A stretch of DNA of 64,000 nucleotides from Botryllus schlosseri. Its lineage: Eukaryota. This document shows, one piece after another, positions 450-61,323 of this stretch (within the stretch, counting starts at the first letter, position 1; each line of letters begins with the position of its first letter). Both the position numbers and the translations under genes were made by a program. The notes under the pieces were generated by a model. The model saw only the letters and a program-made list of their open reading frames with translations, was not told the origin of the DNA and searched no databases. The stretch spans positions 31,684,001 to 31,748,000 of the forward strand of contig CM119371.1 in NCBI GenBank assembly GCA_051294905.1, written 5' to 3'.

Positions 450-589
450 CTGCACATAGTGTGTCAAACTGAGGCACAAATTTCGGCGGCAAAACACAGA
501 TAAACGATCCCATATGTCCACGACAGAGAGTAGCATTGCGATCGTGCGATGAGTTATATCTCCTTAGGGGTGGCTCGTCGGATCCATCC
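450..589 (-). CDS. Gene B exon B7 (DGSDE + Cys loop)
   Basis: ag|G..G|gtgaga; DGSDEPPLRRYNSSHDRNATLCRGHMGSFICVLPPKFVPQFDTLCA. Confidence 0.88.
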
Positions 590-3500
590 CTTAATATTTT
601 ACCGTTAGAAACAGCACACGTAACTATATTTCAGATAATTGAAAGAATGCCTACTAAACATTAGGTATTGCGTATACGGTCTCAGGTTATGAGCTACTTT
701 ACTACAACCAGGGTTGCGAGCTCAAAAGTGGTGGAGGGCCCCATGTCCAGCTTAGTGGAATAGAAGTAATGTGTTGAATATAAGGTAAGCTATCAAGATA
801 AGCGGTGAGCGACTGGTTTCCTAATAAGGTAGCACAGTGGCCATATCACGAGCCTAAATATACGTCTTCGCAGTACATTATACCATAACAGAGCTACCTA
901 TATGCCGGATGCTATCATATGTTTTACTGAGATCTAGATGTGCATGATCATAAGACTGTGCATAACACCTAAAAATAACTGACAAGCGCGCATGCGGGCC
1001 GAAGAAGAGGTAAGTGAAGATCTACACGAACTTTGCAAACAAGTATTTCTGAGATCCCGATACTTTTGTGATCGGGCACTGTCGTTGCTAATCAACGTGT
1101 AGTCAAAGGCGGTATGGACAGGGCTCCAAGAAAAGTCACACGGGTCGCGCTTAGAGTTAATATGATAAACTTGATAGTAGTGATTTCACGTAAAGTAGTA
1201 CTGATTTCACGTAAAGTTGTAGTGATTTCACCTAAAAGTTGGTATTTGTCTATATGTTGAATTTGAATGTGTCGAATAACGAGGTGGGTGGTACGATTTC
1301 CTATTATGCATATTAATGCAGCAAAGTTACAGGGTTCCCACTCGATGATTGAGGGGATTTATTCGTAATCAAGTTGAATTTATTTCGCTCTGTTTGTTCC
1401 GTATGAATGATGACACACAAACTTTTGCTTCACATTTGTCAGTGGTACTTACATGCAATCTGGTTTTCCATTGCAGAATAACCGTCTTGAAATGCACTTC
1501 GAGCCATCAGAACACGAAAACTCCTGGCTTTTGCATGATGAGCCTTACAGAACGTATCAAGCTTATAGATCCCCTTACTCAACCACTAAACGATACTAGA
1601 GTGTAGTTAACAGTTCTCCGTAATCAAAGAATCTCGAGATTCCTCCTACTTGTAAAACAAATACACTGCGGATATTACGTATAGCCTAACTAACTTCTAA
1701 AGTGAGAAAATGATGCCTCAGTTCAATAATTCCAGTCTGTTTTTTCGTTTGTGTTATTCATGGTGTTTGTTGACTACTATAGTCATTTACACCTGACCGA
1801 TATTCTTTACTTCTACTCCGTAACTACCGACTTGTACCACGGCCTAATTCTAGGCTTTTTGTAAGACACCACTTACGCGGAGAGGGCGAGGAAGAGCCTA
1901 GATCAGGGGGGTCAAACATACGGTCCGGGGGCCGCATCCGGCCCGCCAGGCGATTTTATCCGGCCAGCGAAGCAATTCTGAGTAGATTGAAAAATGTTTG
2001 TATGTTTGTATTATCCAGCACGTTTCTAACAAAGGTTTGAATTTTCAGTAAGTATTACTTCTATTGAATAATACCTTACGACAGCAAATGTAGATTATAT
2101 ATATTCATATGCCACATTTTAACCATACGACAGCAGTGCATGTCGCTAACATTGAAACCCTATTCCGAGATAAGGACAAAAAGTGCATACAGAGTTCAGA
2201 GTTTTCTGAAAAAGGGAGCGAAAACTAGAGAACAGAAGCGAAAACACCAATGCGAAAGCGTTATATGTAGGAGATATTGTAAGAATTTCATAGAAACGTA
2301 ATTCAGATATCTGTGATCACACTGTTGCATCACTTCTAACTCAAATGGTCCCCGGCCTCGAGATAAATCCGTATCGCGATTTGATAATCATGGAGCGAAT
2401 TCCTGCGTCCGCGTTTACTGTTAAATCTCTTGCATTCCTCACAACGCAACGAGTTGGCCCCAGTATAGACTAAAACAAAGGGAGCATGAAATATGACATA
2501 TATATTGGGGTGGGCCACAGCCACTATTCCCTCTAAGCTGTGCGCGTGCGCGGAGGCGCACTGCTTTTAAAGTCGCCCCACACAGAAAAACGTCTGCCGT
2601 GCACAGTGATGACCTAGTTTTAGTCGTTGCGCACTTTTGTCCAAGGGACCGCGCAATGAGTTGCTGATTGCGCGCAGACTCGTGAAAAATTGGAGGTAAC
2701 ATTGGCCACAACGCTATTTGCAAAATTGTGTGTTTAGTGAAAGTTTACTTATATTTGTAATGTTATTTGCTCTAAACATATATTCATATCATCAAAAATG
2801 ATGCCACGGTTCAATAATTCCAGTCAGTGTCATTACACAACCTTTATCCGCTAATATAGGCTAATTGACGATACGTTCCAATAAGCAGAAGAGCGTTTGA
2901 TGACAAAAAATTATCGAAATTCTGTGCTAGAATCTTATCAGCAACAACTAATCTCACCGTCACATAATTTTTCATGTAGTGATGTCAGCCTCTTTGGTAA
3001 CATACAAACAAATTTTCCGACTTTTAAATTCCTTGATTTCCCGCGACAAGCAATATCGTGATGACTATACGATGCGTTGAATTGCCTCAATGGCGGCTCA
3101 TCCGATCCGTCCCTTAATACATTTAAGATATTACAGTTAGAACGACCATATTCATGAGGTTTGATGTGTCCTAACAGACCAGTGGTTTTCTGGAACCTTT
3201 CCGGGGGAGTTCTCTAGAATAAGCCCGGTGTGCACGCATCCACCAAAACATTTAGCGGTAAGATACATTTATGGAAGGCAACAACACTCTATTGTAGTGG
3301 TTCTCAACCTTCTTCAGACACGCCCCTCTTCATGATAGTGAAAAATTTCGCGCCCCGCTTATCGTCATATCACAAAATCAAACCGGGATGAACCGGGATG
3401 CTAGCAACCCCAACAGACTGTTTGATGGCATAGCAGATTATGACTGTTGATAAAAGAATTAAAATATGTGAAATGCAGTCTATATTGAGAGAAACACAAC

Positions 3501-6500
3501 TAAGGGGGGCACGCACCCAGGTTGAGTACCACTGATTGATTGCAGCAGGTATGGTCAAAGTGCTAGTCATTAAATCTCAACTAGTGGAAATTGCATGAAT
3601 TCTCATCACGTATACAAAAAAAAATCAGCTGAAATCCGTCAAGTAAAATTCGATAACGACATATCTGAAAAGTATTCAAGTTAATCGAATAAATCGTTCT
3701 AAAAGTGCGTTCACACGAGGCGGTCAAATACTATTCAAAACGGCACGTAAAAGACGAATATCCAAGACATTAAAGCTACATATTCGATGGTGATACCAAT
3801 AGGAGCAATATCTAAATTATACTATTTAGTTGTAAATACCCCCGGCTATTATGACGAGTTCATACATATGAGAAAAACCTCTTGAAAACTAGATTTCATT
3901 CGACAAATACAATGTTACCTAACCCCCGAATTGCATTTACTGATCACTACAATACTTACTCACCTGCAATCCCAATTTCCATTACAAAACAACCTAATTG
4001 CAATGCATCTTGAACCATCTTCACACGCAAACTCATTCACTTTGCACGACGAACCTACATTGAATTTGACACAAGTTGAAGTGTGATTGCAAATTCAAAT
4101 TAAAACATAGGGGTTTCCGCGATCGTTCTGAACACGCGCGTTAGCTATAAAAACCTTGGTAATTAGGAGCAGCCCGCGTTGGCAAAATATCCTTAGTAGG
4201 TTCCACTACATAGGCGTCTAAGAGAAATTTTATATTTTCACATGAATTTTAACGTTTTAGATCCTGAATTTCAATTTCCAATAACTGGATTGCAGTGGCA
4301 GTAAGATACGGAACGCAACATGACGCCACAGTTAACATTAATGGCCTGTAGCTATACCTTTCGCAAAAAAAATAGTTTGGAACATTACGCTATGTGAGAT
4401 GCAAATAACGACTTGCATCGCTTGTGCTATATGCTTTGGCTGCAAAACGGGTCGTAGCGTGACTATGAGCCGATATCCCTGAGAAGTAGCCTACTAGAGC
4501 GAATATTAGATTAAAACACACACGGCCTTTTGGTGTCAACATTTATGCATAGTCCTCATCTTCTACAGAGGTTTGCTGTATGCATACTCGTAAAACTTAC
4601 TGCATACTCCTAAAACGAATAATATTTTGAACCGCGTGCTATGGAGTTTACCGGACATTTCGTGACGTTTTCTGTTGCTATCGTAATTCAATTGTTGACC
4701 GGATCACCACATAAAAGTCGTAGATTCTTAAATGGGAATCAGTTTGATTGCGTTAAATCATATCAGGCTTTAGTACCGCTGCCAAGCCGTTTACCTTCCA
4801 TATGAAGTGATCTCGAAAATTGCCAAATGTATGAAGCGGATGCAATCTACCGGCGCTAAAGGATTCGCTATAGAAAGTGTCTGATTCGACGACATTCTGT
4901 GACTTCCCGCGAGATATGTTGCAATAAGCGGTAATAGACAATCAGAGATATTCAACAGCGCTCGAGAGGGAGAGAGTCGTTGATGCTTCGTCGGTGTCTG
5001 AAGACCATACTTGGAAGCAATCGAATGGAATCACATACCTGCACATATCTCTTCTTTGTATCGTACATGATGAGGTGACAGTACGCAGACCGAACTTACG
5101 CGAGCTGATCGTAATTTTCTACTTCGACCGAAGATTACGTCGTCGTCGTATCTCATTGTATTGTTCCTTAATGGCGGTTCGTCGGATCCATCCCTATCAG
5201 ACATATGAGAATGTTCTAATCTCAATCTTCCTAGTCAACAAAATCGAATCCGATCTCCCTACGTGTTATGCACATTCGATGTCAAAATGATGCTTCAAAA
5301 GATACAATGATCGCATTTCATCCGCAGATTCATTAACCCTTTCACTGCTGCACCTTACAACCGCTAGTAATCCTGTCGTCACTTGGAGCATTGTTGACGT
5401 CTGGCATATATATTATGCTCGGTGACCTGGACTCGGACTTGACTCAATGGTGAATTGAAAATGAATTGTTTTGACTCTATTCAAAACCATGAAAGTTGGA
5501 TTGACTGGTGAGTCGGAGCCTTTTGACTTGGTTACAGAGCTGATATATAACATACACGTGATCAGATTTCCTGCTGGAGCTCCTTGAAATTTAGGACACC
5601 CATTCCGTTTCGGCAACATTGCACCAAGTTTAACAAGTCTTTTTTAGATCGGGTAGCTGTTCACTAAAAATAAAGCAAGGCTAGCGATCTCTTTGACTTG
5701 AATCGATGACGTTGGAATATTTTGTCACTGTCTGAATATGATGATTTGAAAATATAAGATGAATACTTTCACCAGAGGCCTTGTGATAGATTCCGCATAA
5801 CATTTGCTCGCTGAGGATATATTTGACTGATAGGCCGTCGCTGGCCGACAAAAATCTCTTGTGAACTGCAGCACATCTGAACTAGTTCAATAAAAATAGA
5901 AGGGGGAATTTTTATGTGAAAAAGAGATTTCAAATAGCATTTGAACATACTTTCAGCAAAAAACAGCCGTAAGGAGCATGCGCTGGGATATACCTGGTTG
6001 ACTACATGACAGTTCGGACATGAACAATTTGGGAAATCCGTTACAATTCTAAAGTGGAATTCCTGCCTGCAAAATGCAAAATTCCACCTAAATTCCTCCC
6101 TGGTAGGGAACAACCGCACTATGACATCACAATTACTCCATGCTCAAGTGCTCACAAACCTGACAAAGACAGACGGTAGATAAGACGCCGTGTAGTCACA
6201 TGATAATTTATGATATTTGATTGGTTAATAACGTTACCAACAATCTGTCCGATGGAGAGAAGAACAATAGATGTTTCGAATTCGACACCAATCAGTTTTG
6301 TACATGCAAGGTGCCGCCTAATCACCATAGTGTTAAAACCAGGGCTTTGGAGCCGGAGCCTGGAGCCGGAGCCGTACATTTTCACCGGAGCTGGAGCCGG
6401 AGCCGGAGCTCTAAATAAAATTCAGCCGGAGCCGGAGCAGGAGCTCGTTGTTTGAGGAGTAGCTCCGGCTCCGACCTATTTCAGAAGATGCTATTATATA

Positions 6501-9500
6501 TGCAACAACCACATCTGCTGATTTATCATAATTCAACAGCAGGCCTGAATTTTAATGCTGTGCACAGCAATGGCATATAGTAAAGTGCCTTCTGCTGCAA
6601 CTATGATGTTGTCGACAATTGACAAGTATTCAATATGAAGTCACAAGCCGGCACAGCGGCACCTATATGTCTTCGTTGCTACATCGGATATTACTGACGG
6701 CTGAGAGACTTTAGATTACTATAGATAAGTAATCTATGGGTAGATTAGTAATCTATATAGACCAGGAATGGCCAACCTCTTCGGCTAAAGGGGCAAATGC
6801 AAGTGACGACTGAGTGCGCGGTCCACTACCCGCGCCAAGCGGGTAAGATATTCTAAGTTTATAAATAAACTAGGTGAGTATTGCGGGTCTATTGTATACC
6901 ACCTGCTAGGCTTAGTTTGCAAGGACACGTCTATTCGGCGTCTGGACACATCGATATCGAAGGTCTCCGATTATATGCGACAATCATTTTGTGCCTACAT
7001 TTCACTGTCGACGATTTTTATGCGGGCGCAAACGCGAAAAGACTTTCACCCGTAATTGCGAATACAGTTGGACTCAATCGGGTAAATTAGGCGTTTTTTC
7101 ATTTTCAGTAGGGGGTAGGCTACCAACCAAGAAATCGAGTGACAATTAAACACGCGAAGCGCTACTATTTTAGTTTATTTTAATTTACGACGATTTACTG
7201 AAAATGTGACTCGACCCTGGATCTGTCAATGCCTCGGAACTGATATTTTGGTCATCAATATCCCAAGTGTCGCATCCAGAATTGTAATTTTTGGTTGGCA
7301 TTGCAATTTCACAATCTGAGCAATTCATTTTCGCTAGTATAATAGGAAATTACCTCGCGGGCCACGCAAAACCCTCTCGCGGGCCACATTTGGCCCGCGG
7401 GTTGGCCACTCCTGATATAGACAGGGCCATTCGATAATTTAAGAGCCGGAACCGGAGCTGGAGCCGGAGCAGTGGTAATAATGCGGCTCCGGAGCTGGAG
7501 CCGGAGCTAATGTATGGTAGAAGAGAGCTCCGGAGCCGGAGCTGGAGCAGTTTAAATTTATGCCTGTTCCAAAGCCCTGGTTAAAACAGATGTGATCCTT
7601 TCTCTCCTTTACTATCTTCGCGTGGTTCGACATTAAATAGACACACTTTTGTTGACTAGGTTGTTTCAATTTGTTCTGTTTAGTGTACGCCTAAAATATA
7701 TATCACTCACAACAACCGTACATATGATTGTGTCTGTATCTTGACACCGTATTCATCCTTGTGTCACAAACTTTATCTTACCTTTGGTGTATAAATTGCG
7801 AGCTGTGAGCTTAAATTGATAAAGTTTCAGGTGATATACGTCCTACCTAATTAACCATGAATGACGATGGACTATCAGGTCTATCGATTCTTTCTGCAGA
7901 TAGAGACTACGTTCAAAAACTTTATTTCGGAGATATGATCGCTGTTTTTCTTTGACGAAGGCTCAAAAAGTTCAATTTTGAAGCGGCTATTGATCTTTTA
8001 TTGCCTAATACACTTGTTCTACATTTTTCCTGTTATTTTTGGCCTAACACTGAGACAGTGAGACTTCTTTCTCAAGCAATATAGAATTTCTGAAACGTAA
8101 CACATTATTTGCAATTACTTTATTAAAAATATTGCTTGAACATGAAACTATTTTAAAAATTTGCTGCAGTCTACTTGAGGTAGCATTTTCAACGAAAGCC
8201 ATGGGCGGCAGCATGTGATCCAACGCCACAGGGTAAATGTGCCGTGGTCACCGATTTATTCACTTTACCGAAGTCCTTGTCGCCACACCCTACCATATCG
8301 GTACCGTCATTGTGCCCGTAGGAACGGAGCCGCCAACTAGTAGAGTATGATGTGTGCTTTACCGAATCGGCGCTCCAACCACTGTGCTAAGTACGCCGGT
8401 TTCCCCAGCTACCATAACTCTACTTACCGGCAATCGATTTTTTCATCGCAAAACTTTTCGCGTTCAATGCATTGTGAGCCGTCCAGGCATGAAAATTCAC
8501 CATTTATACAATCTGAATCTGAATAACATCCAATGGTAAGGCCACACAGATTGTGTAAATTATGAAAATAAAAATTCCTATCCTATAAAGTATTGGTTCT
8601 AACAAGAGGCCGAGTGACCCATTGGGATACGAAACACCGATCAGTGGTACGACATGCATTGTGAAGAGTAGAGACTAGAGCCAAAAATTATTTTGCAAAG
8701 CACCATAAAGATATCGTTTCTAGGCAGACTTATTAAACTCGAAAATCACATCTACGCTTCACGCGATTTCATATCGATGCATTTATTTTCATATTATTAT
8801 CACTAACGGGCAAATGCAAACAAGATGAGCGCTATTTAAGCTTTTTGATTTGATTATGTATATCACCTTCTCAAAAATAGTGATATAGGGATGGTGTGAA
8901 CCTCTGAAAGGTTCAGGTTCGTGTGAACGTGAACCTTTTTGAAAGGTTCTGTGTGAACACGAACGTGAACCTCATGACGTCACGTGACGTCATATTGCTA
9001 ATTTAAACCCCATATTTCAATTAGGTGATTGCCTACTGTACGCGATACCGAGCGACGACTCGAGGCCACATAATAGCTCAGTACTCAAGTACATATTGAA
9101 GTTTGAAACGTTGACAAATGTATCAACTGGGGTAAATAAATGATATAATAATCCCATAAAGTCAGTATCTTGCGTCGCTTTGCCAACAATTTCGACCTGG
9201 TCGGACAATGTATTCGGCGTCTGAGTATTGCCACATGGATATTTAGCAGAGTGTAAAATGGGTTTCTATTCTTGCTACCGATTAACAAGTTATACAGCAG
9301 TATAGCCAACACCCCAGTCACACGGATTTGGTTTTTATGATACAGTATACATATGTAGTCAAGATTGACCCCGTACGGCTGCTAGATTTTTACAGCAGAA
9401 GACGATATCAATCTCATTGATTGGTTGAATAAGGATCATTTGTTGACAAAACACAATGTATTTCGCTCTTGATGTCATGCGATTGCGGGTCAAGCTCACA

Positions 9501-12500
9501 GCACAGAGACACTAAATATGCACAAACGGAAAGCTGGAGTATTCTAGCAAACTTTTGAAACAATACAAGTAAATTTTTGAGATTGTCAAGGGCATGCTCG
9601 TTTAGTGTTGAATGTTTATGTTGCCAGCTCCATGCATAGAGTGGCCCGCAGTTGAAAGTCAATAAAGTTGAACCAAATATGTTACAATGAAGTGAAAATT
9701 GCAATATATGAAAAAGGTTCACAGTGCAGAACCTACCAAGGTTCTGTTGTGAACGCGAACCTCAAATTTGCCGAGGTTCACACACAGAACACGAACGTGA
9801 ACCTCACGTTCACACCATCCCTAGTGATAATATCAAAAACGAAACATGCTCATAGCTTTCCGAAATGAGTCAAGCCGTCTTCGCAAGTATTAGGGATCGG
9901 TATGTTTCTGGGATCGCTTGGGGTCATTGGGGTGCATAAGTGCATTATTCCCCCAGCAGTCAAATTGCCGCTGCCTGATTGCCGCTCAGTAGAAATGCAA
10001 CGCGCAGCGATAAGTCTTGCGTTCGTGAATTAATAAAATTTTAAACTTCTACTCCAGTGTATGCTATTGTCGATAGTCGTTATGTAGCGTGAATCGTGAT
10101 CTGAAGATAAGACACCACAGATAGGCATGAGTATCTACTGGAAATACGTGTCTTGCATAATCATGCGACCTAGCAGAACGCATTGTCGGTGCGACTATAT
10201 CAGGGGTTTATCTGGGTTCGTCATGATGATCCATCAAGGTGTCGCAAAAGCTCAGAGACAGAGTAATCAACGCATCAGCGGCCAGAAGGTTGCGAAGACA
10301 ATGACACTGAATTGTAAAAATGTCGATGTTACAGTAAATTAAATATTGACGTCGAAAACAAAATATTCCGGGAACCGCTGCCTCGTGTACAACTACCTCT
10401 GCTTATGGTAGAAATTTCACAAAAATAAACATACTCTCACTTTTACACGGCATGATTTCGGCAGCTTCTGTGGAGACCATACACACGTTCACAGTGTCAG
10501 AATAGATCCACCCCCCACGACAAGAAGTCAAATTATTACTGTACACGTCGGAGTGGTAGCGCAGTATTTCATCCGAGCCATCACTAAACATAGGCAATCA
10601 TCGTTACAACAAAATACGGCGAAATAATCCTGTGTTGTATAATGTTTGATTGGTGATTACTAGGGTTGCATTTAAAACAAAAATCAATTTAAAACAAACA
10701 TGTTTAAAACAAGGCCCTTGTTTAAAACATGTTTTTTTATTGTTTTTGTTTGTATTTTTAAAACCCATGACGTCACGAATATTCAATTGTGACGTCATGG
10801 TGAAATAAAATTGCCAATTGAAAATATAGGGTAAATATGGCTCCTTTGACGACATACCTACGTACTATAGCTGTTGAGCCGACTATACTTTGAGGGTTGC
10901 AACCATCCCATACCGTATACGTCGGCTATATCGCGGGTGATACTTGTCCGTATAGGTTCATACAATGTGTTTTTTGAAAGTATTTAGACAATTGTTGCAC
11001 GATTTCACAACTTAAAAAAACACAATTTCTTTTTAAAGGCCTTTGTTTAAAACATTGTTTTAAATAACCATTTGTTTGAATGCAACCTTAGTGATTACAA
11101 TGAATTGTGAAATCCGTAAGTGACCTGATAATAACAACTTACTACCCACCAACAACAAATGCCCCTGTATGCAGGACTAGGCTGAACAGTTAGAGTTAAA
11201 ATGAACAAAATGAATCGCAACAACCGGAAGTGTTCAGGTTCGCTAACTAGTTTGATTGGGAGTAGGCCTACTGCCCTTGCTAAATTCAAAACCTACTGTC
11301 AGTTCTACATCGCATGGATACAGATCGTGTGGGCATTCGTCGTCTGAGTAGCTATGGGCAACACCGGAAAACAAAATGTTCTAAAATATTCGCTGCATCC
11401 TAATTATGGGCATCCTATGCGAAATATTGCAGTGTCCAAGCCTATTACAATCTTCAGGTTGAACGTCAATCACATTTTAATATGGGCGCGCGCTTATGGT
11501 TGCTTCGTGAATCACGTTTTTTTGTGTGTCGGTTTGTATATGGATACAGGCTGCCTTATTGGCTTCCCCATTTTATTCGATCATCGTTACGGATATTCGC
11601 TGAGCCGTACCTGTCTTTACTTGTCACTGGGATTTATTGTGGATAACCACTATCGAACAAAAACCTATACCACAATGGTCGGGAGTATGGACCAAAAGCA
11701 ATACTAGTTTACGGCAATACGTGCCGTAAGCCTCGTTTCCCTGCTAGCAATTAATCGTGAAACAGATTTCAGCGACATTAATTTTGATTGGAGCGCGATG
11801 TTGGACAGTTTGTTTTTGTGCATCTTAAAATTTGAATTAATTTCCTTCTCCATTTTAGCTTTGTGAACGTTGATTGAAAACTTCAATCCAGCTCGATTAT
11901 AATCAGCAAACATTTGCCGCGACGCAAGCTATAATCGTAACCCCTTTGTGTACGACGTAAAAGACGAATTACTGCTTGAAAAACGATTTCTCATTTACAA
12001 TATTCCATCACATGTTTTGTCTGCTCGATACATTCGTTTTCGCGAATTGTCACGCAATTTCACGTGTAGGTTGGGACGAACAGTCTTAGAGTATCAATAA
12101 ACGATCCAGAAAAAAAAAAAAATCGGTATGATCACTGATAATAATGGAAGTCCTACTTGCTACATTATCCATCGCAATACTGAGCCACAAATGGCCGAGA
12201 ACTGTTCGCACTCAGTCTCATCCACATGGCAAAAAAAGGAAGAATATACTGTGCAGAAGATATTTTAAGGCGATAACTGAATATATATATATATTTATAC
12301 TATACTGTATGTGACCCATTATTATTATTACCGCTACCATTACGCGAGGGAATAAATGAAAAAAAAAAGACAAATGAAACTATCGATACCTAGACAAATA
12401 ACTATGGATACCACGCCCAACAGTATAGTAAGGCCCATCACTCTACTTCAATTTAAAGAGGAGCGGTAAGGGATGCTCGAAATACTATTTTAAATCAAAG

Positions 12501-39217: not shown

Positions 39218-39223
39218 TTTATT
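39218..39223 (-). promoter_or_regulatory. Candidate polyadenylation signal of gene A
   Basis: AATAAA on the minus strand ~450 nt downstream of the stop codon. Confidence 0.3.
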
Positions 39224-39671: not shown

Positions 39672-39874
39672 TTAGGACGACAGAACTGCTCTCTCCGTCA
39701 TTTCCAACGGTTCAGATTGTCTCGCCGGTATGGCGGTTGAGGACCCGCAAATCCTCCGAAGCTTTTCCCAGACGATTTCAGGCAAATCCGAATAAAGCAG
39801 AGGATTCAATGCGCTGTTTATCGGCACGATGAGCAAACCGGCCGGCAGATAGACATCTTTTGGTATATCGACTC
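39672..39874 (-). CDS. Gene A terminal exon: ECL3, TM7, C-tail, stop
   Basis: GVDIPKDVYLPAGLLIVPINSALNPLLYSDLPEIVWEKLRRICGSSTAIPARQSEPLEMTERAVLSS*. Confidence 0.93.
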
Positions 39875-48800: not shown

Positions 48801-51800
48801 ATCCCTGCCTTAAATACTCCAGAAAAGTACTAGAATCTCATTACCAATGACATCTGTATGTAATAGAGGGATGATGATATATCTAGCTTGATAAGGGGGT
48901 GAGAAGTCAAACACATTCTGGGAGTCACCTTCTCAAACCTAGGAACTATGGTCGAGACAGATCGAGATTAGATTAATGGTGAGGTCGCAGATGAGTGCGA
49001 AACGGGTCTTTCCCGTACCGACTCCAAGTGAACCCCTATGAATGTTACAGGCTCATTGCAGATGCAATACCTGAATTCACAGTTGGGCGTTAAGCCTAAT
49101 TGCCTTCCAAATCTGGAGTTAGAATGAGAATTCAAGTTTTGCAATAGCCTGCAACTAGAATAATATTATTGAATATACACTGTATGACATGAGGGAGTAA
49201 TTTCTAATATTGTCGGATTCAAACGTGACGACAAGTACGTTTCAACTTACTTTGGTCTGTGATCTTGATAGTGAAGATAATCTGTAAAATCATAGTCGTA
49301 CACGACGATATGGTCACAAAAACCCGGTTCCGTCTCGCAATTGCATTCTTCGTCCATGAAATCGTTGCATTCTGGTATACCGTCGCACGCTGTGCCATCT
49401 GATTTCGAGGCAAAATACGGGTACACGAATTCATGAAGTTGAGTTAGAAATGTACCGTAGTTCGGTAGATAGAAAGAGATTGAAAAATATGTAACTCACT
49501 TCGTCATGAGCACGACGTTATCGAATATTGATTTTGCGGGGGTTGGGAACAATTCCAGAGTGCTTAGAATCAATAACAAGTAATCTTACTCGGCACTGCA
49601 TCGTCGCGAAATGGCTATACCTTACACATACGATGGATATTTAACTATTGAACTCACACTTCCCAGGAGGTTCGTAGCATTTATAATCCAGTACTCTGTC
49701 GCTTGGAGACATTCTTTGTCTTGATTCTGAAATTCGCAATGTATTGCAAAATTATCTAGGAAAATGTCATCATATGCACCCTGCCTTTCTGGGCAGAGTT
49801 CATCGGTAGACTAACGTGGGTCACTTTAATTTTGATGGAGTGTGGATTTAAACAGGCTGACATCGTAACGATAATGCTCCCCATCGGAAAAATGCCACAA
49901 ATTTGGAACCCGATGACTAAATAACACGGTGTTGCGGCTTCAATTCTACATGTGCGTGATAATGGATAGTATTTAGTGATAAATATGAATAGCATTATGT
50001 TATAGCAGTGCCGGTCAAAGTAGCCAGCGTTCCTACTCAAGTAGAAGTAAAGGTAACGCCTACTAATTATCAGCAGAAGTAGCGGTTTCGACGTCTTTGC
50101 AAAACTACAACAAATGAAAATAGAGAAAGGAAGGCTGAAATTTAATCCGTCACTGGTACTGGCTTCTTCCCAAATTCAGAGATTTATCATCGGGACTCTC
50201 AGAAGTCGACTAATGACAGTATCCAGTTCCTGTGATACAATGACTATTCCATGTGGATTTTATGACAAATTCACTCTCAAAAGAGACGCAAACTTACCCC
50301 TTGACCACTTTCAGCTTTCAAAGATTCAAAGTGCAATAGTTGAAAAGTTTTTCCAAAATATCTGTTCGATTAGAAGTAGACGTATAGTCTAAAACAGGGC
50401 TGGCCAACCTTTTCAGCCAAAGGGCCACATTCGATTGACGAACTATTGCGCGGGCCACTAGCCGCGCGAATCGCGAAAAATTTTCGAAGTTCATAATTCA
50501 ATAATATTGTTACTTGACTATATTGCGGGCCTGTTGTATATCGCTGGGCTCAGTTTGTGAGGACTGGGCTATTCGGCGCATGGACATAGCGATATCGAAA
50601 GCTGCGACCAAAATGCGTCAATCATTTCGTGCCTAGGTTTCATAGTCGGCGGTCTGACTGCGAGCGCAAACGCAATGTCGCATGGGCTATGTTGAACGAC
50701 ACTTTGTCTCGTAATCGCGAATATAGCTAGACTCAATCTGATACATTAGGTATTTTTCCATTTTCACAAATGAGCAACAATATTAAAAGCAAGAAATCGA
50801 GTGACAAGATGTTGCACCAAGCTTGTAGAAAAATTTTACCTTTGATAAATCTATCGCAAATTATTCTGCTTTATTGTGGTGTACGAAGATATACCAATAA
50901 GTGAATGGCTGATGGATCTGTCAATGCGTCGGAACTGAAATTTTAGTCATCACATCTCAAGTGTTGCGACCAGACTAATCAAATTTTTTGTTCGCCTTGC
51001 AAGTTCACAATCTGTGCATGCAATCCATTTTTGATGATATTAGAAATTGCGGAAATGACCTCGCGGGCCACTCAAAACCTTCTCGCGGGCCACGGGTTGG
51101 CCGGCCCTGGTCTAAAACAACAAGGGTTGTAATGACTCGAGTCCAACTGGAATAAATTTTTCTAATAACTTTACTTGTACTCGAGTCATTGTGCATGACT
51201 TGAACCAAGTCATATGACCCGAGACTGGGACGGCCAAGACAGGCATTTCATTGTAACTTCGAAGCATAGTAAAGTTACCACGTTGTTGGTATTTCGTCTA
51301 TCAGTCAAACTTGAAAAATAACGCCATAAACTGTTAAGACCGGGGAAAATTACTATATCACTCGAGCAGTGTTGAAAATTTTGGTTCCACGGGATTGAAC
51401 TGAAGACTGAATAGTGAGCATAATGACTTGGACTCGGACTCGAGTCAAAACACTTTGACTCGGACTCGACCCTCTACTACAGGGATATCAAACATGCGGC
51501 TCGCCAGACGATTTCATCCGGCACGCGAAGCAATTCTGAGTATTCCTTAAGGAAATGCCTGTATCATCCAGCACATCTCTAACAATTATTGAGAAATGCA
51601 CAGGGTTGTAACCAAGTCACAAGGCACCGAGTCACAAGTCAATCTCAGTTTTATAGTTTTGACTCGAGTCAAGTCGAGTCATTTTCAATTCACCACCGAG
51701 TCAAGTCCGAGTCCAAGTCAGCGAAAAGAGGGTCGAGTCCGAGTGACGGCATTATGACTCGAGTCGAGTCTGAGTCATTATGTTGACTGCTCAGTTTGCT

Positions 51801-54800: not shown

Positions 54801-57800
54801 AAAAGTACTTTGTTACTGACCACTTCCTGTGCTATCTGAGTATTTGGAAAATCGAACTGCGAATCAATGATCAAAACATCACATGGAACAAATATTTTAT
54901 GAACAATATCGTGTATTGCAGTGGTGCAGTGGTGCAGTGGAGTAATATATGTCTCTTTTAGGTATAAGATATGGCTCTTTGCCAAATATTAATTTTTGTA
55001 CGGAATTGTTCAATATTTCAGCGACTTGTTAGATTTTTCTCACGACCAGAATAATTATTCTCGTGGCAGTATAAATATGTTTTTGAGCGGTAAAGACAGT
55101 GCCGTCTTCAGGTGTAGGGGCTCTGACCTCATCTTTTCAAAATCCTCAAATTTTAGTTACTGTCGCACCGGCGACCAATTATCCCTCGCGAATAAGAGGT
55201 ACCCGATTCGAAATCTTGGATTGCGCGATACCTTGATTAATCGAAGAGCGTAGCAGAAATGGCGACGCCAATATCACAACGCAGTTTTCAAATACACATT
55301 GTCGTCCTGATCCACGGCGCGAAATGAACTGTCGTGGACGTAACATTCACAATTACAAACTCGAATTACAAACAACGCCATAGCTATCCACGTTCTTGAT
55401 TGGTAAGTATCTCCGGGGTAAAATGTGCGCGTGTAGCGCAGAGTCATGTTACCGCCGAAGACTTTGAGAATTGAGAAGTCGATCAGTATATAGATTTTCG
55501 GTATCAATGTGACAGTTACATTTGGTAATTATCAGTTATAATAAATTCTAAGCTATTAGAGATGAATTGCGTTTGCAATGGTGAGGCTTGACCCGTCTGT
55601 GCTTTACCTTTCGATTCGAGCTTCAGTTTCTAACAATAAATACCAGTTTTTACAGAGAAAATGTGGTGTACAGTACGGATCACATGTAGTGAGTTCGAAT
55701 AAGTGCATAAGTGCTATCATGACGTCACGAAATGTCCATTGTGGCGTAGCAGTTGATTGGCATGTATGGCTCTTTGGGAGTTAAAATGAAAAAAAATAGG
55801 GCCAATATGGCTCTTCGCACAAAAAAGGTTCCCGACCCCTGGTGTATTGGATGCATTTTTTCAGTGAATTGCACAATTCCGGTGCTCCAATTAGACATTG
55901 TCATCGGCCGTCACGATCCCACTTATTTTAACCATCAACCAATATCTATCTGGGATTAGGGCGTTCATACCGGCTGTCCGCGGTTGCGATTACGCGTCTA
56001 CACAATATACATATATCGTGCATGTCCTTTTACCGTGAAAAAAGAATGTGACATACCTGTTAGCTGACAATATTCCTCGTCTTCACGTTTAGGACAATCC
56101 CACCTGTGCACAAAAATTTTAATTTACTGATATCTGTGATGTTCCCCAGTCAATTGCCTTCTTAGAGTCACATGCCTAACGCTGAGGTGAGACAACCATC
56201 ATGGATACAAGCCATGTGGTTGGCTTGTGATGCCGTGAACGTCTCTATAATGAATTTTCCTGTATCCAAGCACATATTCGCACTTTTGTGAAACCGTACT
56301 AATGACTCTTCAATGATGGTAACATATTACATGTTCATTGCGAATTCGCGATACTATTGTCGTCGGCGTTCGTGCAAACCTTCGTGGTCGCGTTCTTGCT
56401 CGGATTTGCTCAACCTAGCCCAATATTTTTAACTGTGTGATGAGTAGGCTATTACATGCGTTGTTCGTACTCGTGATTTCCGTTCGAAATTATATTTAGT
56501 CTTCTTTCCCGTGTTAACGCAGAATAAAGAAGTCATATAAGCCAGATTTCCAACGACTGTCACCCAATTCTCCAAATCTATCTCTTTCGAAATAGTTGCA
56601 ACTTTTAGCATTTTGTAGGCTGAAACAGTAATGGATGAATCGAGATCATTCTGCTGCACCTGCAGTAAATGAAATGTTAGCATCATCGATTATCTGGATG
56701 TTGATTGAATAATATTTGTTTCGAATTATATATTCAAACTTGTCATCACGCGGGAAAAGTTGTGAGTGTCTGCTGCAGGCCTGTCGATCTAATGGCTCCT
56801 TGACGCTATTTACTGCTCGTAACGAATACAAATTATCGACTCAAATTTGTCCATTCAAATTTCTATGCTTCTCCATTCGTTCGCGGTTAAATAATCCCGT
56901 TATTGACCTTTTTCAATGTGACGTGGGATTATTAATAAATGAAATAACAAACAGCCGTAATGCCGAGATTTATCAACACAATCAATTACTCTCAATGGTG
57001 AATGTACGAACACGACAGGTATTGGCCGTATGTGATTACCCGAAGGTATTTAACTGAACTCATTTGGATTTTTTTTATCTTGGCCGTTAGAAGAAAGCAT
57101 CGTATAACGATCAATATATGTTCGGGCATATCCAGCACGCCGACGATTTTATTGTAATGAACAGCATGAATAACTCCCTCCTCCTACCTGAGCATGTAGG
57201 CTCGTTTCATCATTCAAAACAGCTACTTACGCATTCTGCAAATTGATGTTACAAGCGCATGGACCACACTGTAAGTACCATAAGTTCACATAATGATACC
57301 ATGGTCAGTAACTACATTAATCGCTGCTTTCCGCAATAATTGTCATTGGTCGATGGTCATTCTTTTGTAGCGTACCTGCCATCGCAGACTTTCCAGGCGC
57401 CAATCAGTTTTCTAGACGTATACTCCTCACCATCGCATTTCATTGACGGCAGTCGTATATATCCAGTTTCGTTCGATTCTGTGGATTAAGCACAAATATT
57501 TTCATCACATAAAAATAATTGAATTGGGAAGACAGAGCATACCCCAAACGAATTTTTCACACAGTTTTGGTCGAATTGTCGGCGAACAGAGACATTCGTC
57601 AGTGAGGTCACGACAGTCGAATTCACCGTTACATAACTTCGAAATCGGTAGAACCACGAGTGGATCAGTCAAGCAACGGAAACAGTTGTTGTCCGAATAG
57701 TCTGATATAAGACATGGAAACGTTAATAACATATACAAATTCGAATGAATGCTACCTACAATTCTTGTTTTCTCCACAGAGGCACTCGTCGATATCTGTA

Positions 57801-60800
57801 TATAAATAAATCCACCATTTTGTTGTTGGGTTTGTGGTATTCATTGTGTGTGTTCGACTGCAACGCTCATCTTTAAAAGGCTGGCTATCTTTATTTGGAT
57901 TCCGTAATGCCGACTTATAGAACGGCCCATTTCTTGGCTTTTTCAAGACACAACTTGCGCCTACTTTTACTTATAATTGGGTATATAGAGATATGGCGTT
58001 TCTTCTACTTCTATTTATGTAACAATGATGAATATCTTGACCGCCTCTGAGGCACTCTAATACTGAAGAAAGACGGTTTCTTTTCGTGGCGTTCGGAGTT
58101 ATAAAGGGGCCAAATAGTCAATCAGAACACTATTTTCCTGCCCATGCCATTCTTTACTACCTATCAAGGGAACCAGGCTAGATCGACCGAACTTACAGCC
58201 TACCGATCACGAAACGTACTGCACATGCGACGCATGTAAATGCCTCCATACACCTACCGAAGTCGCAAAATGGAACTCCATCGCATATATTGGAAATCGG
58301 TATCAAACACTGTCTTCCATTGCGAGGGCATAGTCTGTCCGACATATTTGTTGCGTCTGAAACGGTTACTTCGTCGCTCCCGTCACTGCAAATAGAGCAG
58401 ATAAACGTGAATCATAAAAAGAGATACGCTCCCTGATGTAGCAGTATGTTTGCTGAGATTGAACAGATTTTTAAACATTATATCATTTATTTTGTTCTAT
58501 TCGATGCTGGTCAGTCACAAACAAATTTTATTGACAAAAAGGGAACATGCGGTCGTAATGTAATTCCATCATCAGAAATCAAGCCAGCTATGATACCAAC
58601 AGTGCCTTTGTATGGAAAGTCCGTTGTATCCAGAGTAGAATCCTTTAGAAGTAGACAGAGACGGGCAGTAACAGAGTAGTTCTACTTTACCGAATTTCTC
58701 GCCTACGTTTTGTCCCCATGCACTACTTTCCAAGTAGATACGTTGTAGAACAATTTCACCCGATCTGCTGGTTTCGGGAAAAATTACTTAGATTTTAAAT
58801 TTGGTTGGATGGTTGGTTGGTTAAATAGTTGCTGATTCGAGTCTCGGTTCTGCCATGTTTCTATGTGTCGGAGGCTTATCTGGTCTCCTCATCGTCGATC
58901 CCTCTGTATTTACAACGCCTTGAAAAGCCCAGAGGAGGAGAGAGTCGAACTCTGTAAAGAGGACCGCTAAATACCAGAAAAAGAAAGCAAGACTGCAAAT
59001 ATATTGATGTTACTGCAATTACCGTGTTGGGCGCAAATAACCTTATAGGCGATAAGCGCCAATGTTGTGAATAAAATAAAACAAATCAAACTGACAAAAG
59101 TATGAGAACCTTCGAACCCCACGTAGCCTTTTGTTTTATTTTTGTTCGCAACATTGACGCTCATCACCTATAACGTCACTCTCGCCCAGCACGGTAATTT
59201 CATTAATATCCGTGTCTTCGTGGTATTTTTCGTCATATTATGGACGATTTCCATGGTCGAGCGACCCATCATCGGCCGTTCTCGTTTTTCGTGCCTCCGT
59301 ATTTAGAGTCTTTGCAGCCGACTTTTTGGCTCAGCTCCCCTTCCTTCGCTATTTCATACACCGCAGCCAGGATAGCAATGAGGCGTCTAGATAAGTCTCC
59401 GAATGGCGTTGGTGTCGTGACGCAGGCGCTTAACCCTCTGTGCCACTCGCTCCCCCAAACTACTTGGTAGCTAATTAGTTGATTACTTTCAAGACCTTTT
59501 ACTTTTTTACTTGAAACGGTTTGGACATCTTTTGGAATTCGGTAATTCTGATTGTAATCGAGTTGAAATTTTTGATGCTTCTTCGAATTCTACTTGAGGA
59601 CCAATGCTGACTACTTTGACAACCTTTCCAATTGTATTGCTTGTAACTTAATACTTTGTACACGGCTTGCGTCAGACTTAAATCGAGAATTAAGGTCTGA
59701 ATTCGTAACCGCATTTAGCGACGCAAGTTCGAATTATCATTGAAATAATGGTGTCGACGTTCCTACAGCTAATACCCACTCGCAATCTGCAGTTCCATCG
59801 CAAAACTTGTATTCTAAAATGCAAAGCGCTCCGTTGGCACAGGCAAATTCGTTCGACGTACATTCTGAGCCTGCAAGGACAGAAGTGTCATTTTATGAAG
59901 TAGGTTACCATATTTTGAAATCGGGAAAGGGGTACACTTGTACCAAATCTTAAAAGTTATTTGACCTGCATTGAAAACCTGCATTGAAAACAGCCGATTT
60001 TGTGATATGTACCGGAAATCTGGTTGTTTTGCCTAAAAAGAGGGTCATCACTTCGACTCGATTCCCGGTTTACCCACTTTTTACACTTATTATGTGCTGT
60101 TGACTTAAAAAAAGGCTGTCACTTTCATTTGACTCCCGAAGGACACGCTCGAACGTCTTTATTACTTATTTTACGTCATTTATCCTGATTTTCGGTGGAC
60201 TCTATCCATTATCCTAGCTTTAAAAGCTGTTAAGGTGGACGAAATGCCAAAATTGAAGATATTTTCACCTCCTTGAAAAAAACGACGAATCCTCATTAGA
60301 GCAGGTTTGGTAACCCGATATAAATGTCAAATATATGTTACACCGCGACACATATATATGTGTCGTACTGCTGAACATGGGGCTTTAGCGCGTCACACGT
60401 ATGCTGCTAGTAAGAAACCATGGGGCGTAATGTGAAATATACGTTACGGTGATATTTGAATTAAAATGAATACAAGCCCTCGTATAAGCCAGGGCTCCCT
60501 GATATAAATCCGGTGACGATCCTGTTAATCAGTGTAGAACACGTAACGACTCATTAGCATTCGATTGCTATCAAAGGTTGGGTGGATAACATTGACGTGT
60601 GCGTCTTATACACATTTGTCTGGCGCACTTGGCTAAATTGTGTATTATTTCAGTTCGGAACAATTATCAGCATCAAATGCATGACAACCGTCAGTATGGC
60701 CCATTCAGACGATTTCATCAGTATTTTGTAAACATCGAAACAAAGTATACTCAAACAACAGAAAAATTATGTTTGGGCAGTTTTGTGTGCACGCTGCCGG

Positions 60801-61323
60801 TCGCACATATCCTGGTGGGTATAGGTGATTTTAGATATCTGGCAAAACATTTGTAGCACCCTTCCTTCATACTAAAAGTCACTCTTATCATAGCCTTTAA
60901 AGTCGCTGACATATCTCTTACTATGCGGGCCCGGAGAAGTAGCGACCAGCTATAATCATGTCACAATACGAAAAGGATAAACAATTTAGGCATTAACCTA
61001 TGGATACGCCACTTGCGAAAAGTCCTAGCCTCATTTCAAGACCCAGGAATTGATCTTCCCGGCTGCAAGCGGGACCGTGGTCGCACTTTGAAGCCAAGTG
61101 GAAATTGCTACACGAATGAATTCTAATCGTGGAGAACAAGACGATAAATATTTAGTCGACATCCTTACCTTCACACATTTCGTTCTTGTAAGGTACTAGA
61201 TTCGCTGGCAATTGGCATATTGAACGTTTGAAGTTATAGCCGTCATTTCTCCATTTCATGCGGCAAAATGTAGCATTGCTACCAATACCTTCATCTCGCA
61301 GTGGCTTCTCATCCGTACCATCC
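39672..61323 (-). CDS. Gene A (5'-partial, spliced): LDLa-repeat-containing rhodopsin-class GPCR (LGR/RXFP/GRL101-related 7TM, no LRRs seen)
   Basis: 20 phase-compatible GT-AG exons: 61169-61323, 59780-59870, 58258-58385, 57760-57795, 57543-57701, 57376-57478, 56057-56103, 49658-49726, 49251-49398, 47862-47969, 47450-47513, 47295-47381, 46056-46185, 45603-45760, 45360-45541, 43557-43682, 42227-42328, 41936-42154, 41116-41273, 39672-39874. About 8 LDLa-like modules, then LSFSDMIVG (TM2), WRSSSTC (ECL1/TM3), YYSSHGVCLP (ECL2), TDFLCWIPI (TM6), PINSALNPLLYS (TM7), and stop TAA at 39672-39674. Confidence 0.92.
40536..40975. mobile_element. MITE (same family as 10661-11090)
   Basis: Colinear similarity to 10661-11090; TSD CTAATGAC/CTGATGAC. 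Confidence 0.85.
41116..41273 (-). CDS. Gene A exon: ICL3 + TM6
   Basis: QATANLTGANSHAGDEKYNEANRKLQRKLTRIVVTDFLCWIPICIMGFLTFN; donor gtgagt. Confidence 0.93.
41936..42154 (-). CDS. Gene A exon: ECL2 C-part + TM5
   Basis: STEWSQLKNMIHGVNPNISVTYEFGYYSSHGVCLPTFFPDPSTDRTWRYSFFLLLVNFLAFLYMSICYVLLFR. Confidence 0.92.
42227..42328 (-). CDS. Gene A exon: ECL2 N-part
   Basis: FNENRIFKVMYYHEIQYTKNWLSIMNVTHMSRYG; phase 2-2, acceptor atcag, donor gtacgt. Confidence 0.75.
42658..43142. mobile_element. MITE with CCGATA subterminal motifs
   Basis: TIR TAGAGGTCG / CGACCTCTA; TSD TTATGAAT/GTATGAAT. Confidence 0.78.
43557..43682 (-). CDS. Gene A exon: TM4
   Basis: PLSRPHLTGTTFAISLAWVISILLGTIPLIPQLEDYFVSSVA; donor gtaagt. 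Confidence 0.92.
45360..45541 (-). CDS. Gene A exon: TM2 end, ECL1, TM3
   Basis: VYAFSICIKASRNDTDYCHVDREWRSSSTCAALGAIMVIGSEQSVFTMAIIATQRLHSAMR. Confidence 0.93.
45603..45760 (-). CDS. Gene A exon: TM1-TM2
   Basis: LAAIIGCTGVIAITLRTMIKPLLSNHVTSTSTRNKIIRRLILSLSFSDMIVG; donor gtgagt. Confidence 0.92.
46056..46185 (-). CDS. Gene A exon: last LDLa + hinge + start of TM1
   Basis: VCDGIKDCKSGVDECQAGCVKSAFSDEKSLIASEAILAISWII. Confidence 0.92.
47295..47969 (-). CDS. Gene A three LDLa exons (47862-47969, 47450-47513, 47295-47381)
   Basis: CRHFETGSPIDVTLDEVCDGMSQCEQYADELGCKSR|FYCSDQPLPNIAIEKKCDMQA|DCDSGTDEADCPHFSCKDDGILQYISQNA. Confidence 0.9.
48213..48475 (-). mobile_element. tRNA-derived SINE (most complete copy)
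   Basis: Minus strand: GGCAGTGGTATAATCCGCGGCTGCAACACC...GGTTCGAGTCC (pol III A/B boxes), then a tRNA-unrelated body and A-rich tail; fragments at ~1741-1902(-), ~38228-38345(+), ~57818-57950(-) and ~58835-58935(+). Confidence 0.75.
49251..49726 (-). CDS. Gene A two exons (49658-49726, 49251-49398), LDLa-like
   Basis: ESRQRMSPSDRVLDYKCYEPPGK|YGTACDGIPECNDFMDEECNCETEPGFCDHIVVYDYDFTDYLHYQDHRPK; the first exon is less certain. Confidence 0.82.
50395..51109. mobile_element. hAT-like MITE (same family as 6763-7414)
   Basis: TIR CAGGGCTGGCCAACC / GGTTGGCCGGCCCTG; exact TSD GTCTAAAA; internal similarity to 6763-7414. Confidence 0.9.
51601..52157. mobile_element. MITE of the GACTCGAGTC-rich family (opposite orientation)
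   Basis: TIR CAGGGTTGTAA / TTACGACCCTG; TSD GAAATGCA/GAAATACA. Confidence 0.85.
52395..53693. mobile_element. hAT-like MITE (same family as 28144-29423)
   Basis: Same TIR; TSD AAAAACAC/GAAAACAC; reverse-complement similarity along its length. Confidence 0.88.
56057..58385 (-). CDS. Gene A five LDLa exons (58258-58385, 57760-57795, 57543-57701, 57376-57478, 56057-56103)
   Basis: DGSDEVTV...CLIPISNICDGVPFCDF|DIDECLCGENKN|YYSDNNCFRC...LCNGEFDCRDLTDECLC...|...WKVCDGR|WDCPKREDEEYCQLT; all phases compatible. Confidence 0.88.
59780..59870 (-). CDS. Gene A 91-nt LDLa half-exon (A-type)
   Basis: GSECTSNEFACANGALCILEYKFCDGTADC; same length and phases as gene B A-exons. Confidence 0.9.
61169..61323 (-). 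CDS. Gene A B-type exon (most 5' exon visible)
   Basis: DGTDEKPLRDEGIGSNATFCRMKWRNDGYNFKRSICQLPANLVPYKNEMCE; phase 2-1, donor gtaagg. Confidence 0.88.

What the first reader, a model, noticed from the sequence alone, without database searches (positions are those of the whole stretch)
450..61323. Head-to-tail paralog cluster with variable ectodomain module number
Seen: gene A's most 5' exons (61169-61323 B-type, 59780-59870 A-type) match gene B's modules in length, phase and motif (DGTDEKPLR…NATFCR…CQLP…MCEG versus B7 DGSDEPPLR…NATLCR…CVLP…LCAG). Gene B's ATG lies ~8.5 kb downstream of gene A's stop on the same strand. Inference: a tandemly expanded receptor family whose members share a membrane-proximal LDLa/7TM core and differ in the number and sequence of N-terminal modules. 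Gene B could alternatively be a secreted, TM-less decoy.
Basis: partly seen in the sequence, partly recalled or inferred. Interest (0 to 1): 0.72.

Follow-up and report, generated by a model that had tools for sequence, protein, structure and literature searches.

The report
Tandem sea-squirt LDLa-arm GPCR genes
Two neighbouring, spliced genes of a likely sea squirt share a repeated eight-cysteine LDL-receptor-type module; one encodes a relaxin-receptor-like GPCR without leucine-rich repeats and the other likely does too, so this is a real but largely known orphan receptor family, and neither gene's module count can be read from this window.

Summary
Gene A (minus strand, 19 exons, 61323-39673, open 847 aa) is an LDLa-chain 7TM receptor with no LRR. 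Gene B starts 8,549 nt after A's stop with a signal-like exon and seven two-exon modules. A's two 5' exons are the only further strong matches to profiles built from B's exons. Spliced contigs confirm 8 of A's 18 introns and 2 of B's 14, and show B running on into an eighth LDLa exon outside the window. The family is the Ciona LDLRR-GPCRs (PMC2396169), already described with 1-10 repeats. Styela receptors join 3 or 4 of these modules to the same core and group with gene A, so B is probably a receptor (about 0.85), not a decoy. Different module numbers in A and B are not shown: both genes are cut by the window. Not found in print: the eight-cysteine module, and a 60-90 residue insert in extracellular loop 2 with an altered ECL2 motif (13 of 13 sequences). 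This scan noted the module and such clusters before, on other DNA of this genome.

The parts
61169..61323 (-). Gene A exon 1 (first visible): B-type tail exon (acidic motif + 3 Cys), 155 nt, phase 2-1; upstream exons lie beyond 64000
   Evidence: splice to next exon in X10 contig
59780..59870 (-). Gene A exon 2: A-type LDLa head (5 Cys), 91 nt, phase 1-2
   Evidence: Pfam PF00057 E 7.7e-8; both junctions in X10
57760..58385 (-). Gene A exons 3-4 (58385-58258, 57795-57760): acidic motif plus a second LDLa lacking its first Cys, completing the ten-cysteine fused double unit that opens the core
   Evidence: junctions in X10 and X6
56057..57701 (-). Gene A exons 5-7 (57701-57543, 57478-57376, 56103-56057): core LDLa modules
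   Evidence: junctions in X10, some in X6
49251..49726 (-). Gene A exons 8-9 (49726-49658, 49398-49251): degenerate LDLa
   Evidence: junction 56057/49726 in X10; intron 8 by sequence only
47295..47969 (-). Gene A exons 10-12 (47969-47862, 47513-47450, 47381-47295): membrane-proximal LDLa modules
   Evidence: weak PF00057 match for exon 10; junctions not among the joints listed
46056..46185 (-). Gene A exon 13: last LDLa half, hinge motif and start of TM1
45360..45760 (-). Gene A exons 14-15 (45760-45603, 45541-45360): TM1-TM3
   Evidence: junction in X10 and X6
43557..43682 (-). Gene A exon 16: TM4
41936..42328 (-). Gene A exon 17 (393 nt): long ECL2 insert, ECL2 cysteine motif and TM5
41116..41273 (-). 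Gene A exon 18: ICL3 and TM6
39673..39874 (-). Gene A exon 19: TM7, C-tail, stop follows at 39672
31045..31123 (-). Gene B exon 1: ATG and hydrophobic signal-like segment (inferred start, no RNA laid here)
30889..30979 (-). Gene B A1 (91 nt)
26291..26436 (-). Gene B B1 (146 nt)
25862..25955 (-). Gene B A2 (94 nt)
22259..22392 (-). Gene B B2 (134 nt)
19186..19276 (-). Gene B A3 (91 nt)
18690..18871 (-). Gene B B3 (182 nt, longest loop)
12601..12691 (-). Gene B A4 (91 nt)
10441..10583 (-). Gene B B4 (143 nt)
8428..8518 (-). Gene B A5 (91 nt)
5039..5193 (-). Gene B B5 (155 nt; lacks the first tail cysteine, so module 5 has 7 Cys)
3964..4054 (-). Gene B A6 (91 nt)
2958..3112 (-). Gene B B6 (155 nt)
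   Evidence: its last 30 nt are the loose end of the X8 contig at A7
1453..1543 (-). Gene B A7 (91 nt)
   Evidence: in X8 contig with 0 differences
450..589 (-). Gene B B7 (140 nt); spliced on to an eighth A-type exon left of position 1

Best explanation
Gene A is a spliced, LRR-less, relaxin-receptor-like GPCR with an ectodomain of LDLa modules, and gene B is a neighbouring spliced gene built from the same eight-cysteine module that likely ends in the same core and 7TM, the two likely being old tandem duplicates that would signal when a large extracellular ligand engages the module arm. Shown: both exon chains, part of their splicing, gene A's 7TM and hinge, the shared module, and full-length Styela relatives that join 3 or 4 modules to the same core. 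Inferred: (1) the module arose by fusing one LDLa (5 Cys plus acidic calcium motif) to a cut-down second one, and was then multiplied as a symmetric phase 1-1 exon pair, which lets copy number change without a frame shift; (2) the arm is a calcium-stiffened string in which acidic heads and variable, mostly basic, glycosylated tail loops give multivalent binding to a protein or particle; (3) binding would move the retained hinge (equivalent to RXFP1 I396-S397, L402-L403) against ECL2, and the family's folded ECL2 insert would take over the restraining or docking role that the LRRs play in RXFP1. My odds: identity of A 0.97; B has a 7TM 0.85; the arm binds the ligand and acts through hinge and ECL2 0.4.
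For: Open GT-AG models of 847 and 591 aa. 8 of 18 gene A introns in contigs of X10, 4 of them also in X6, two studies. X8 contig joins B6-A7-B7 with 0 differences in A7 and B7 and runs 279 nt on into an LDLa-type exon not in the window. Gene A's TM region is 41% identical to P0018 (E 3e-98) and groups with it (96/95) inside a starred clade with P0017 and P0001 (100/100) among 13 rows; P0017 and P0018 are the only full-length relatives with arrays of the module. P0003 and P0016 also lead from modules into the core. The model of P0001 (pLDDT 76, pTM 0.73) matches RXFP1 best: 7tmw Z 28.9, rmsd 3.7, 272 aligned, tied with TSHR Z 28.1. Profile match of 43 array tails to 13 fused-double tails: probability 95%, E 3.9e-8, 37 columns. 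The acidic motif is kept in 7 of 7 B modules. Hinge pattern, altered ECL2 motif and insert in 13 of 13 sequences against 16 residues in RXFP1; the insert is predicted folded (block pLDDT 64-92). RXFP1 mechanism from 10.1101/2022.01.22.477343 (passages).
Against: Gene B's 3' part was not seen. 3 of the 5 stored module proteins without a 7TM (P0002, P0004, P0011) end with no core either. Only 1,720 of B's roughly 30,700 bases were laid with RNA, so its start exon is unconfirmed. Only 6 of 13 double tails beat all 50 cysteine-fixed shuffles, and gene A's own did not (5 of 50 reached it). The model of the module-bearing P0016 is weak (mean pLDDT 51) and gave no disulfide pairing. The Ciona model ci0100130612 shows no ECL2 insert (by eye). 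Gene A's branch is long (1.48) and the tree has no outgroup. No ligand, binding or signalling data exist for any member, so steps 2 and 3 rest on analogy.
Confidence: 0.7

Rival explanations
1. Gene B, or a main isoform of it, is a secreted or otherwise TM-less module array acting as a decoy or scavenger beside the receptor gene.
For: No TM segment in the 591 visible residues apart from the signal-like start. P0002 (13 modules), P0004 (9) and P0011 end without core or 7TM.
Against: The transcript does not stop at B7 but splices on. P0011 clusters with the longer P0016, which reaches the core. P0002 ends inside a module and P0004 ends in non-family sequence, as truncated or intron-retaining models would (by eye). 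P0017 and P0018 carry arrays on a 7TM.
Confidence: 0.12
2. Both are receptors, but the module array is only a spacer or stalk whose copy number and loops drift nearly neutrally; ligand recognition lies in the conserved core or the ECL2 insert.
For: Loop length between the first two tail cysteines runs from 6 to 22 residues; module 5 has lost a cysteine; relatives with 0 modules keep the full core. A second B7 form differs at 5 non-synonymous and 4 synonymous codons against about 99 and 30 sites, which is no excess of replacement.
Against: Cysteine spacing (13 residues in 37 of 43 tails) and the acidic motif are held across species, and each of the 7 eight-cysteine tails in the window keeps an N-glycosylation sequon. 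That fits a constrained fold, though also a structural stalk.
Confidence: 0.35
3. The 8.5-kb gap is an intron and the B modules belong to gene A's transcript, or the two units are an assembly duplication of one gene.
For: Same strand and shared module; no RNA was laid over the gap.
Against: Gene A ends with TM7, a C-tail and a stop, with polyadenylation-like hexamers from 39223. B begins with its own ATG and hydrophobic segment. Modules are only 23-69% identical, and the blastn self-comparison showed no pairing of the module exons.
Confidence: 0.02

Closest known systems
LDLRR-GPCRs of Ciona intestinalis (Kamesh, Aradhyam and Manoj 2008, PMC2396169; seen: passages, section 14, supplement 3 text, part 1 of 9 and passages of supplement 1, four heading rows of supplement 2)
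   Same: Rhodopsin-class 7TM like INSL3/relaxin receptors, LDLa repeats singly or in 2-10 copies, no LRR, lineage-specific expansion (14 members), orphan. Core motifs of ci0100130612 match gene A by eye. Four Ciona models show the fused unit once (by eye).
   Different: The paper says most repeats are classical six-cysteine LDLa; in the parts read it does not describe the eight-cysteine two-exon module, its arrays, genomic clustering or the ECL2 insert.
Styela clava receptors LOC120346100 (P0018) and LOC120327042 (P0017); array fragment XP_077966781.1 (P0002)
   Same: Same module in 4, 3 and 13 copies; same fused double unit, core, hinge, ECL2 insert and 7TM in P0017 and P0018; closest 7TM to gene A.
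   Different: Uncharacterised gene models. Gene A's TM region is only 35-41% identical and its ECL2 is longer (104 against 80-82 residues). The window's modules form their own weakly supported group (64/77).
Human RXFP1 (PDB 7tmw; 10.1101/2022.01.22.477343, passages seen) and glycoprotein hormone receptors
   Same: 7TM fold, hinge spacing, TM6 and TM7 motifs, ECL2 cysteine followed by a hydrophobic residue and proline.
   Different: No LRR; many LDLa instead of one; fourth ECL2 motif position is Arg or Thr instead of hydrophobic; ECL2 is 60-90 residues longer.
LDL-receptor class A module (Pfam PF00057)
   Same: A exons match PF00057 (E 1e-8 to 3e-7 for the 3 tested); structural hits of the P0016 model are LDLa modules (best Z 4.8, rmsd 2.1, 41 aligned).
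   Different: The sixth cysteine after the acidic motif is missing; a 44-60 residue tail with three cysteines follows; no Pfam match for the 4 B exons tested.

Membership tests
LDLRR-GPCR (gene A) | Rhodopsin-class 7TM similar to INSL3/relaxin receptors | tested here: met
   6 hydrophobic segments above threshold plus the TM7 motif; blastp E 3e-98 to P0018; relative P0001 matches LHCGR and RXFP1 best by sequence and RXFP1 by fold
LDLRR-GPCR (gene A) | One or more LDLa modules in the N-terminus | tested here: met
   PF00057 on exon 2 above cut-off, weak on exons 5, 10, 13
LDLRR-GPCR (gene A) | No leucine-rich repeats between LDLa and TM1 | tested here: met
   Continuous exon model from LDLa to TM1, no LRR pattern; no LRR family in 9 relatives scanned. 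The part beyond 64000 was not seen, and introns 8-13 are not among the RNA joints listed.
LDLRR-GPCR (gene A) | Groups with the published Ciona members in a TM tree | tested here: inconclusive
   The paper's sequences were only read by eye; the tree holds Styela, Clavelina, Phallusia and unnamed relatives, no outgroup
LDLRR-GPCR (gene B) | LDLa modules in the N-terminus, no LRR | tested here: met
   7 modules after a signal-like exon, visible part only
LDLRR-GPCR (gene B) | Relaxin-receptor-like 7TM | not testable with these tools
   Lies left of position 1; no genome held; the RNA contig shows only the next exon's first 30 nt
Type C LGR (RXFP1/2, GRL101) | LRR domain in the ectodomain | tested here: not met
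Type C LGR (RXFP1/2, GRL101) | Cys-hydrophobic-Pro-hydrophobic motif in ECL2, said to be shared by all LGRs (10.1101/2022.01.22.477343) | tested here: not met
   Fourth position is Arg (11) or Thr (2) in 13 of 13 sequences
Canonical LDLa module | Six cysteines with the acidic motif between C5 and C6 | tested here: not met
   No cysteine within 15 residues after the acidic motif in 7 of 7 B modules; 8 Cys in 6 of 7 modules, 7 in one
Canonical LDLa module | Acidic calcium-binding motif (ligand positions recalled from general knowledge) | tested here: met
   D-G/R-S-D-E kept in 7 of 7 B modules and in A's; some first ligands are Asn. Binding itself not tested.

The most novel reading that the evidence does not exclude
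Stolidobranch sea squirts rebuilt a relaxin-type receptor into a family of modular sensors: the LRR brake was replaced by a new folded domain inside ECL2, and an exon-pair cassette with a variable loop was multiplied into long, polymorphic arms that recognise foreign or non-self surfaces on blood cells, giving an immune or allorecognition repertoire that signals directly through G proteins.
Probability: 0.12. Interest if true: 0.8.

Novelty: new variant of a known kind. Interest (0 to 1): 0.36.

Why it matters
The receptor family, its expansion and its variable LDLa count have been known since 2008, so the cluster itself is ordinary. Two details add value. The eight-cysteine two-exon cassette shows how the arm length can change without frame shifts. 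The loss of the LRR, the altered ECL2 motif and the folded ECL2 insert offer a natural test of the RXFP1 model, in which LRRs restrain a self-activating ECL2: these receptors must restrain or trigger it another way. The ligand is still unknown; Ciona ESTs were mostly from blood cells (PMC2396169, section 14).

Tried and rejected
No genome is held, so the flanks could not be extended or loci counted. A protein search with gene A's ECL2-TM5 exon found 0 of 26 candidates; the ESM Atlas gave no usable hit for the ECL2 insert and only generic LDLa clusters for the module array. No RNA holder was listed on record for 39400-48100. Raw-read runs X13 and X17 (6% and 13% read) showed none of the exon joints; X7 laid nothing and X10 did not cover A7 or B7; none of this is evidence of silence or of differential expression. 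No module-skipping joint was seen, but only 15 of 284 joints were shown and only A7-B7 was laid for gene B. P0006 (Toxocara repeat protein) was dropped from the 14 profile hits as unrelated repeat noise; 9 more are single-exon genomic fragments and were not counted. The census pattern scored 1 module in P0024 and P0025, but by eye these are a different core unit; they were not counted as arrays. The module tree used 31 of 40 units (9 near-copies of P0002 left out) and has no starred branch. Fold searches with the weak P0016 model found only LDLa chains, no match for the tail, which is inconclusive. No further A or B exon was found in 61324-64000 or in B's long introns. Diversifying selection on B7 was not supported by the one variant seen. 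Look-ups of earlier findings near the window, by sequence, and for the ECL2 insert returned nothing. No complex was predicted, because no binding partner is claimed.
Full report
1. Observation. The window is animal DNA of about 40% G+C with small exons on the minus strand. I built two gene models by coordinates. Gene A has 19 exons from 61323 to 39673, all introns GT-AG, 847 codons without a stop, then a stop. Gene B has an ATG at 31123, a 79-nt exon with a hydrophobic segment, a 65-nt intron and seven pairs of an A exon (91 nt, once 94; phase 1-2) and a B exon (134-182 nt; phase 2-1), 591 codons without a stop, running off the window at 450. The gap from A's stop to B's ATG is 8,549 nt. Profiles built from gene B's exons alone pick gene A's two 5' exons as the only further strong matches among 2,946 six-frame pieces (E 7e-12 and 1.6e-8; next pieces 0.004 and 0.057). 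The match is far beyond chance, and no further module is hidden in the window.

2. Transcription. Contigs of run X10 join 8 of gene A's 18 introns at the modelled sites, including B exon to A exon and A exon to the core; X6, from another study, shows 4 of them (15 of 284 joints were displayed). For gene B only bases 1-1720 were laid. A 770-nt contig of X8 holds A7 and B7 without a difference, its upstream loose end equals the last 30 nt of B6, and it runs 279 nt beyond B7 into sequence that is not in the window and translates like the start of another A exon. Gene B therefore has at least an eighth LDLa head. Its start exon and its 3' end were not tested with RNA.

3. What it is. Gene A's membrane part is a rhodopsin-class 7TM. 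Its TM6 exon found P0001, and P0001 found 11 receptors of 864-1145 aa, those with names from Styela, Clavelina and Phallusia, all annotated with LDLa and 7tm_1. P0001 matches LHCGR and RXFP1 best among solved structures by sequence. Its model (pLDDT 76, pTM 0.73) matches RXFP1 best by fold (Z 28.9, rmsd 3.7, 272 aligned, tied with TSHR). No LRR lies between the LDLa chain and TM1 in gene A or in the relatives scanned. This is the architecture of the Ciona LDLRR-GPCRs: 14 members, LDLa singly or in 2-10 repeats, no LRR, ligand unknown, ESTs mostly from blood cells (PMC2396169). The organism is likely a stolidobranch ascidian; this is inferred from the nearest named relatives.

4. The module. 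Each unit is 74-89 residues with 8 cysteines (6 of 7 in gene B; one has 7). The A exon gives LDLa cysteines 1-5; the B exon gives the acidic motif, no sixth cysteine, and a tail with three cysteines. A profile of the 8 B exons run on 1.84 billion proteins gave 14 hits: P0002 (Styela, 13 modules), P0003 (6), P0004 (9), P0011 (Styela), 9 single-exon fragments and one unrelated repeat protein that I dropped. Following a lead from earlier notes, I tested whether the tail is a cut-down second LDLa. The core of gene A and of most relatives opens with a ten-cysteine fused double unit, and the 43 array tails align with 13 such double tails at 95% probability (E 3.9e-8, 37 columns). Only 6 of 13 beat all 50 cysteine-fixed shuffles one by one, and gene A's did not. 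The loop between the first two tail cysteines is 6-22 residues, and the next spacing is 13 in 37 of 43. The P0016 model is weak (pLDDT 51); it shows an LDLa head, a hairpin carrying the first two tail cysteines and a helix, and its structural hits are LDLa chains only. The disulfide pairing is my inference.

5. Is gene B a receptor? Not visible here. For: full-length Styela P0017 and P0018 carry 3 and 4 modules, then the double unit, core and 7TM; P0003 and P0016 run from modules into the core; gene A groups with P0018 (96/95) in a starred clade with P0017 and P0001, apart from the array-less receptors (13 rows, no outgroup, long branch for gene A). Against: P0002, P0004 and P0011 end without core or TM, though they look truncated or intron-retaining. 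I put the receptor reading at 0.85.

6. Variable number and clustering. Across relatives the count differs (0, 3, 4, 6 or more, 9 or more, 13 or more). An A+B pair is phase 1-1, so it can be duplicated or lost in frame; this follows. Between A and B the difference is not shown. Unchecked notes of this scan report 8.5 modules starting 324 nt beyond the right end (e1-9813305), a three-gene array 433 kb to the left (e1-9026264) and further loci at about 200 kb, 695 kb and 6 Mb. They are leads that I could not test, and they show that the scan has met this family many times. B's modules are old (23-69% identity per exon), and the window's units group together only weakly (64/77).

7. How it likely works. 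In RXFP1, ECL2 fills the agonist pocket, two hinge leucines assist it, and the LRRs with two more hinge residues hold it off until ligand binds; the paper states that all LGRs share a Cys-hydrophobic-Pro-hydrophobic ECL2 motif (10.1101/2022.01.22.477343, passages). In gene A and 12 relatives the hinge spacing is kept in 13 of 13, the motif's fourth residue is Arg or Thr in 13 of 13, and ECL2 is 75-104 residues before its cysteine against 16 in RXFP1, with a predicted fold. One published Ciona model lacks the insert, which may be a modelling gap. I therefore infer a receptor whose calcium-stiffened LDLa arm binds a large ligand by several modules at once and passes the movement through core and hinge to ECL2, the insert standing in for the lost LRRs. 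This step is by analogy only (0.4). The main rival is that the arm is a drifting spacer (0.35); the one B7 variant seen shows no excess of replacement changes (5 non-synonymous, 4 synonymous codons).

8. Novelty. The family and its variable repeat count are known. Searches of the held library returned no paper describing the eight-cysteine module, its arrays, the clusters or the ECL2 insert; 'LDLRR-GPCR' occurs in one paper only. Subscription journals are not covered, the other listed papers were seen as listings only, and I read 1 of 9 parts plus passages of the 2008 sequence supplement; its domain drawings and tree files could not be read. Verdict: real feature, new variant of a known kind, already noted by this scan on other DNA; interest 0.36.

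Noticed in passing
window 41936-42328 (-), and P0001, P0017-P0027: ECL2 is 75-104 residues from the TM4 proline to the ECL2 cysteine in 13 of 13 sequences, against 16 in RXFP1; the insert is predicted to fold (small sheet plus helices), and the ECL2 motif ends in Arg or Thr.
   Followed up: partly
window 450-589 (-): A second B7 form, spliced in X8 and unspliced in X6, differs at 13 of 131 and 15 of 134 nt, while a neighbouring intron contig differs at 7 of 236; a diverged allele or a close paralog.
   Followed up: partly
window 5039-5193 (-): B5 lacks the first tail cysteine, leaving module 5 with an odd number of cysteines; whether this is polymorphic was not tested.
   Followed up: no
window 36094-37281 (+): 396-codon open frame with a reverse-transcriptase domain (PF00078, E 7.5e-25) in the gap between the two genes, likely part of a non-LTR retroelement.
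   Followed up: partly
window 23033-23748 and 24883-25604: Long inverted repeat in gene B's intron (616 nt at 97% complementarity, 1,340 nt apart), possibly a foldback element or an inverted insertion.
   Followed up: partly
P0002 (Styela clava XP_077966781.1): Its 13 modules repeat with a four-module period and near-identical copies, a recent higher-order duplication, unlike the old, diverged modules of gene B.
   Followed up: no
window 62009-62774 and 16068-16327: Tandem repeats with periods of 327 nt (2.3 copies) and 16 nt (16.6 copies).
   Followed up: no
window 45603-45760 (-): The X10 contig differs from the window at 12 of 158 nt in this TM1-TM2 exon but at 0 in exons 5 and 6: uneven polymorphism along gene A.
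   Followed up: no
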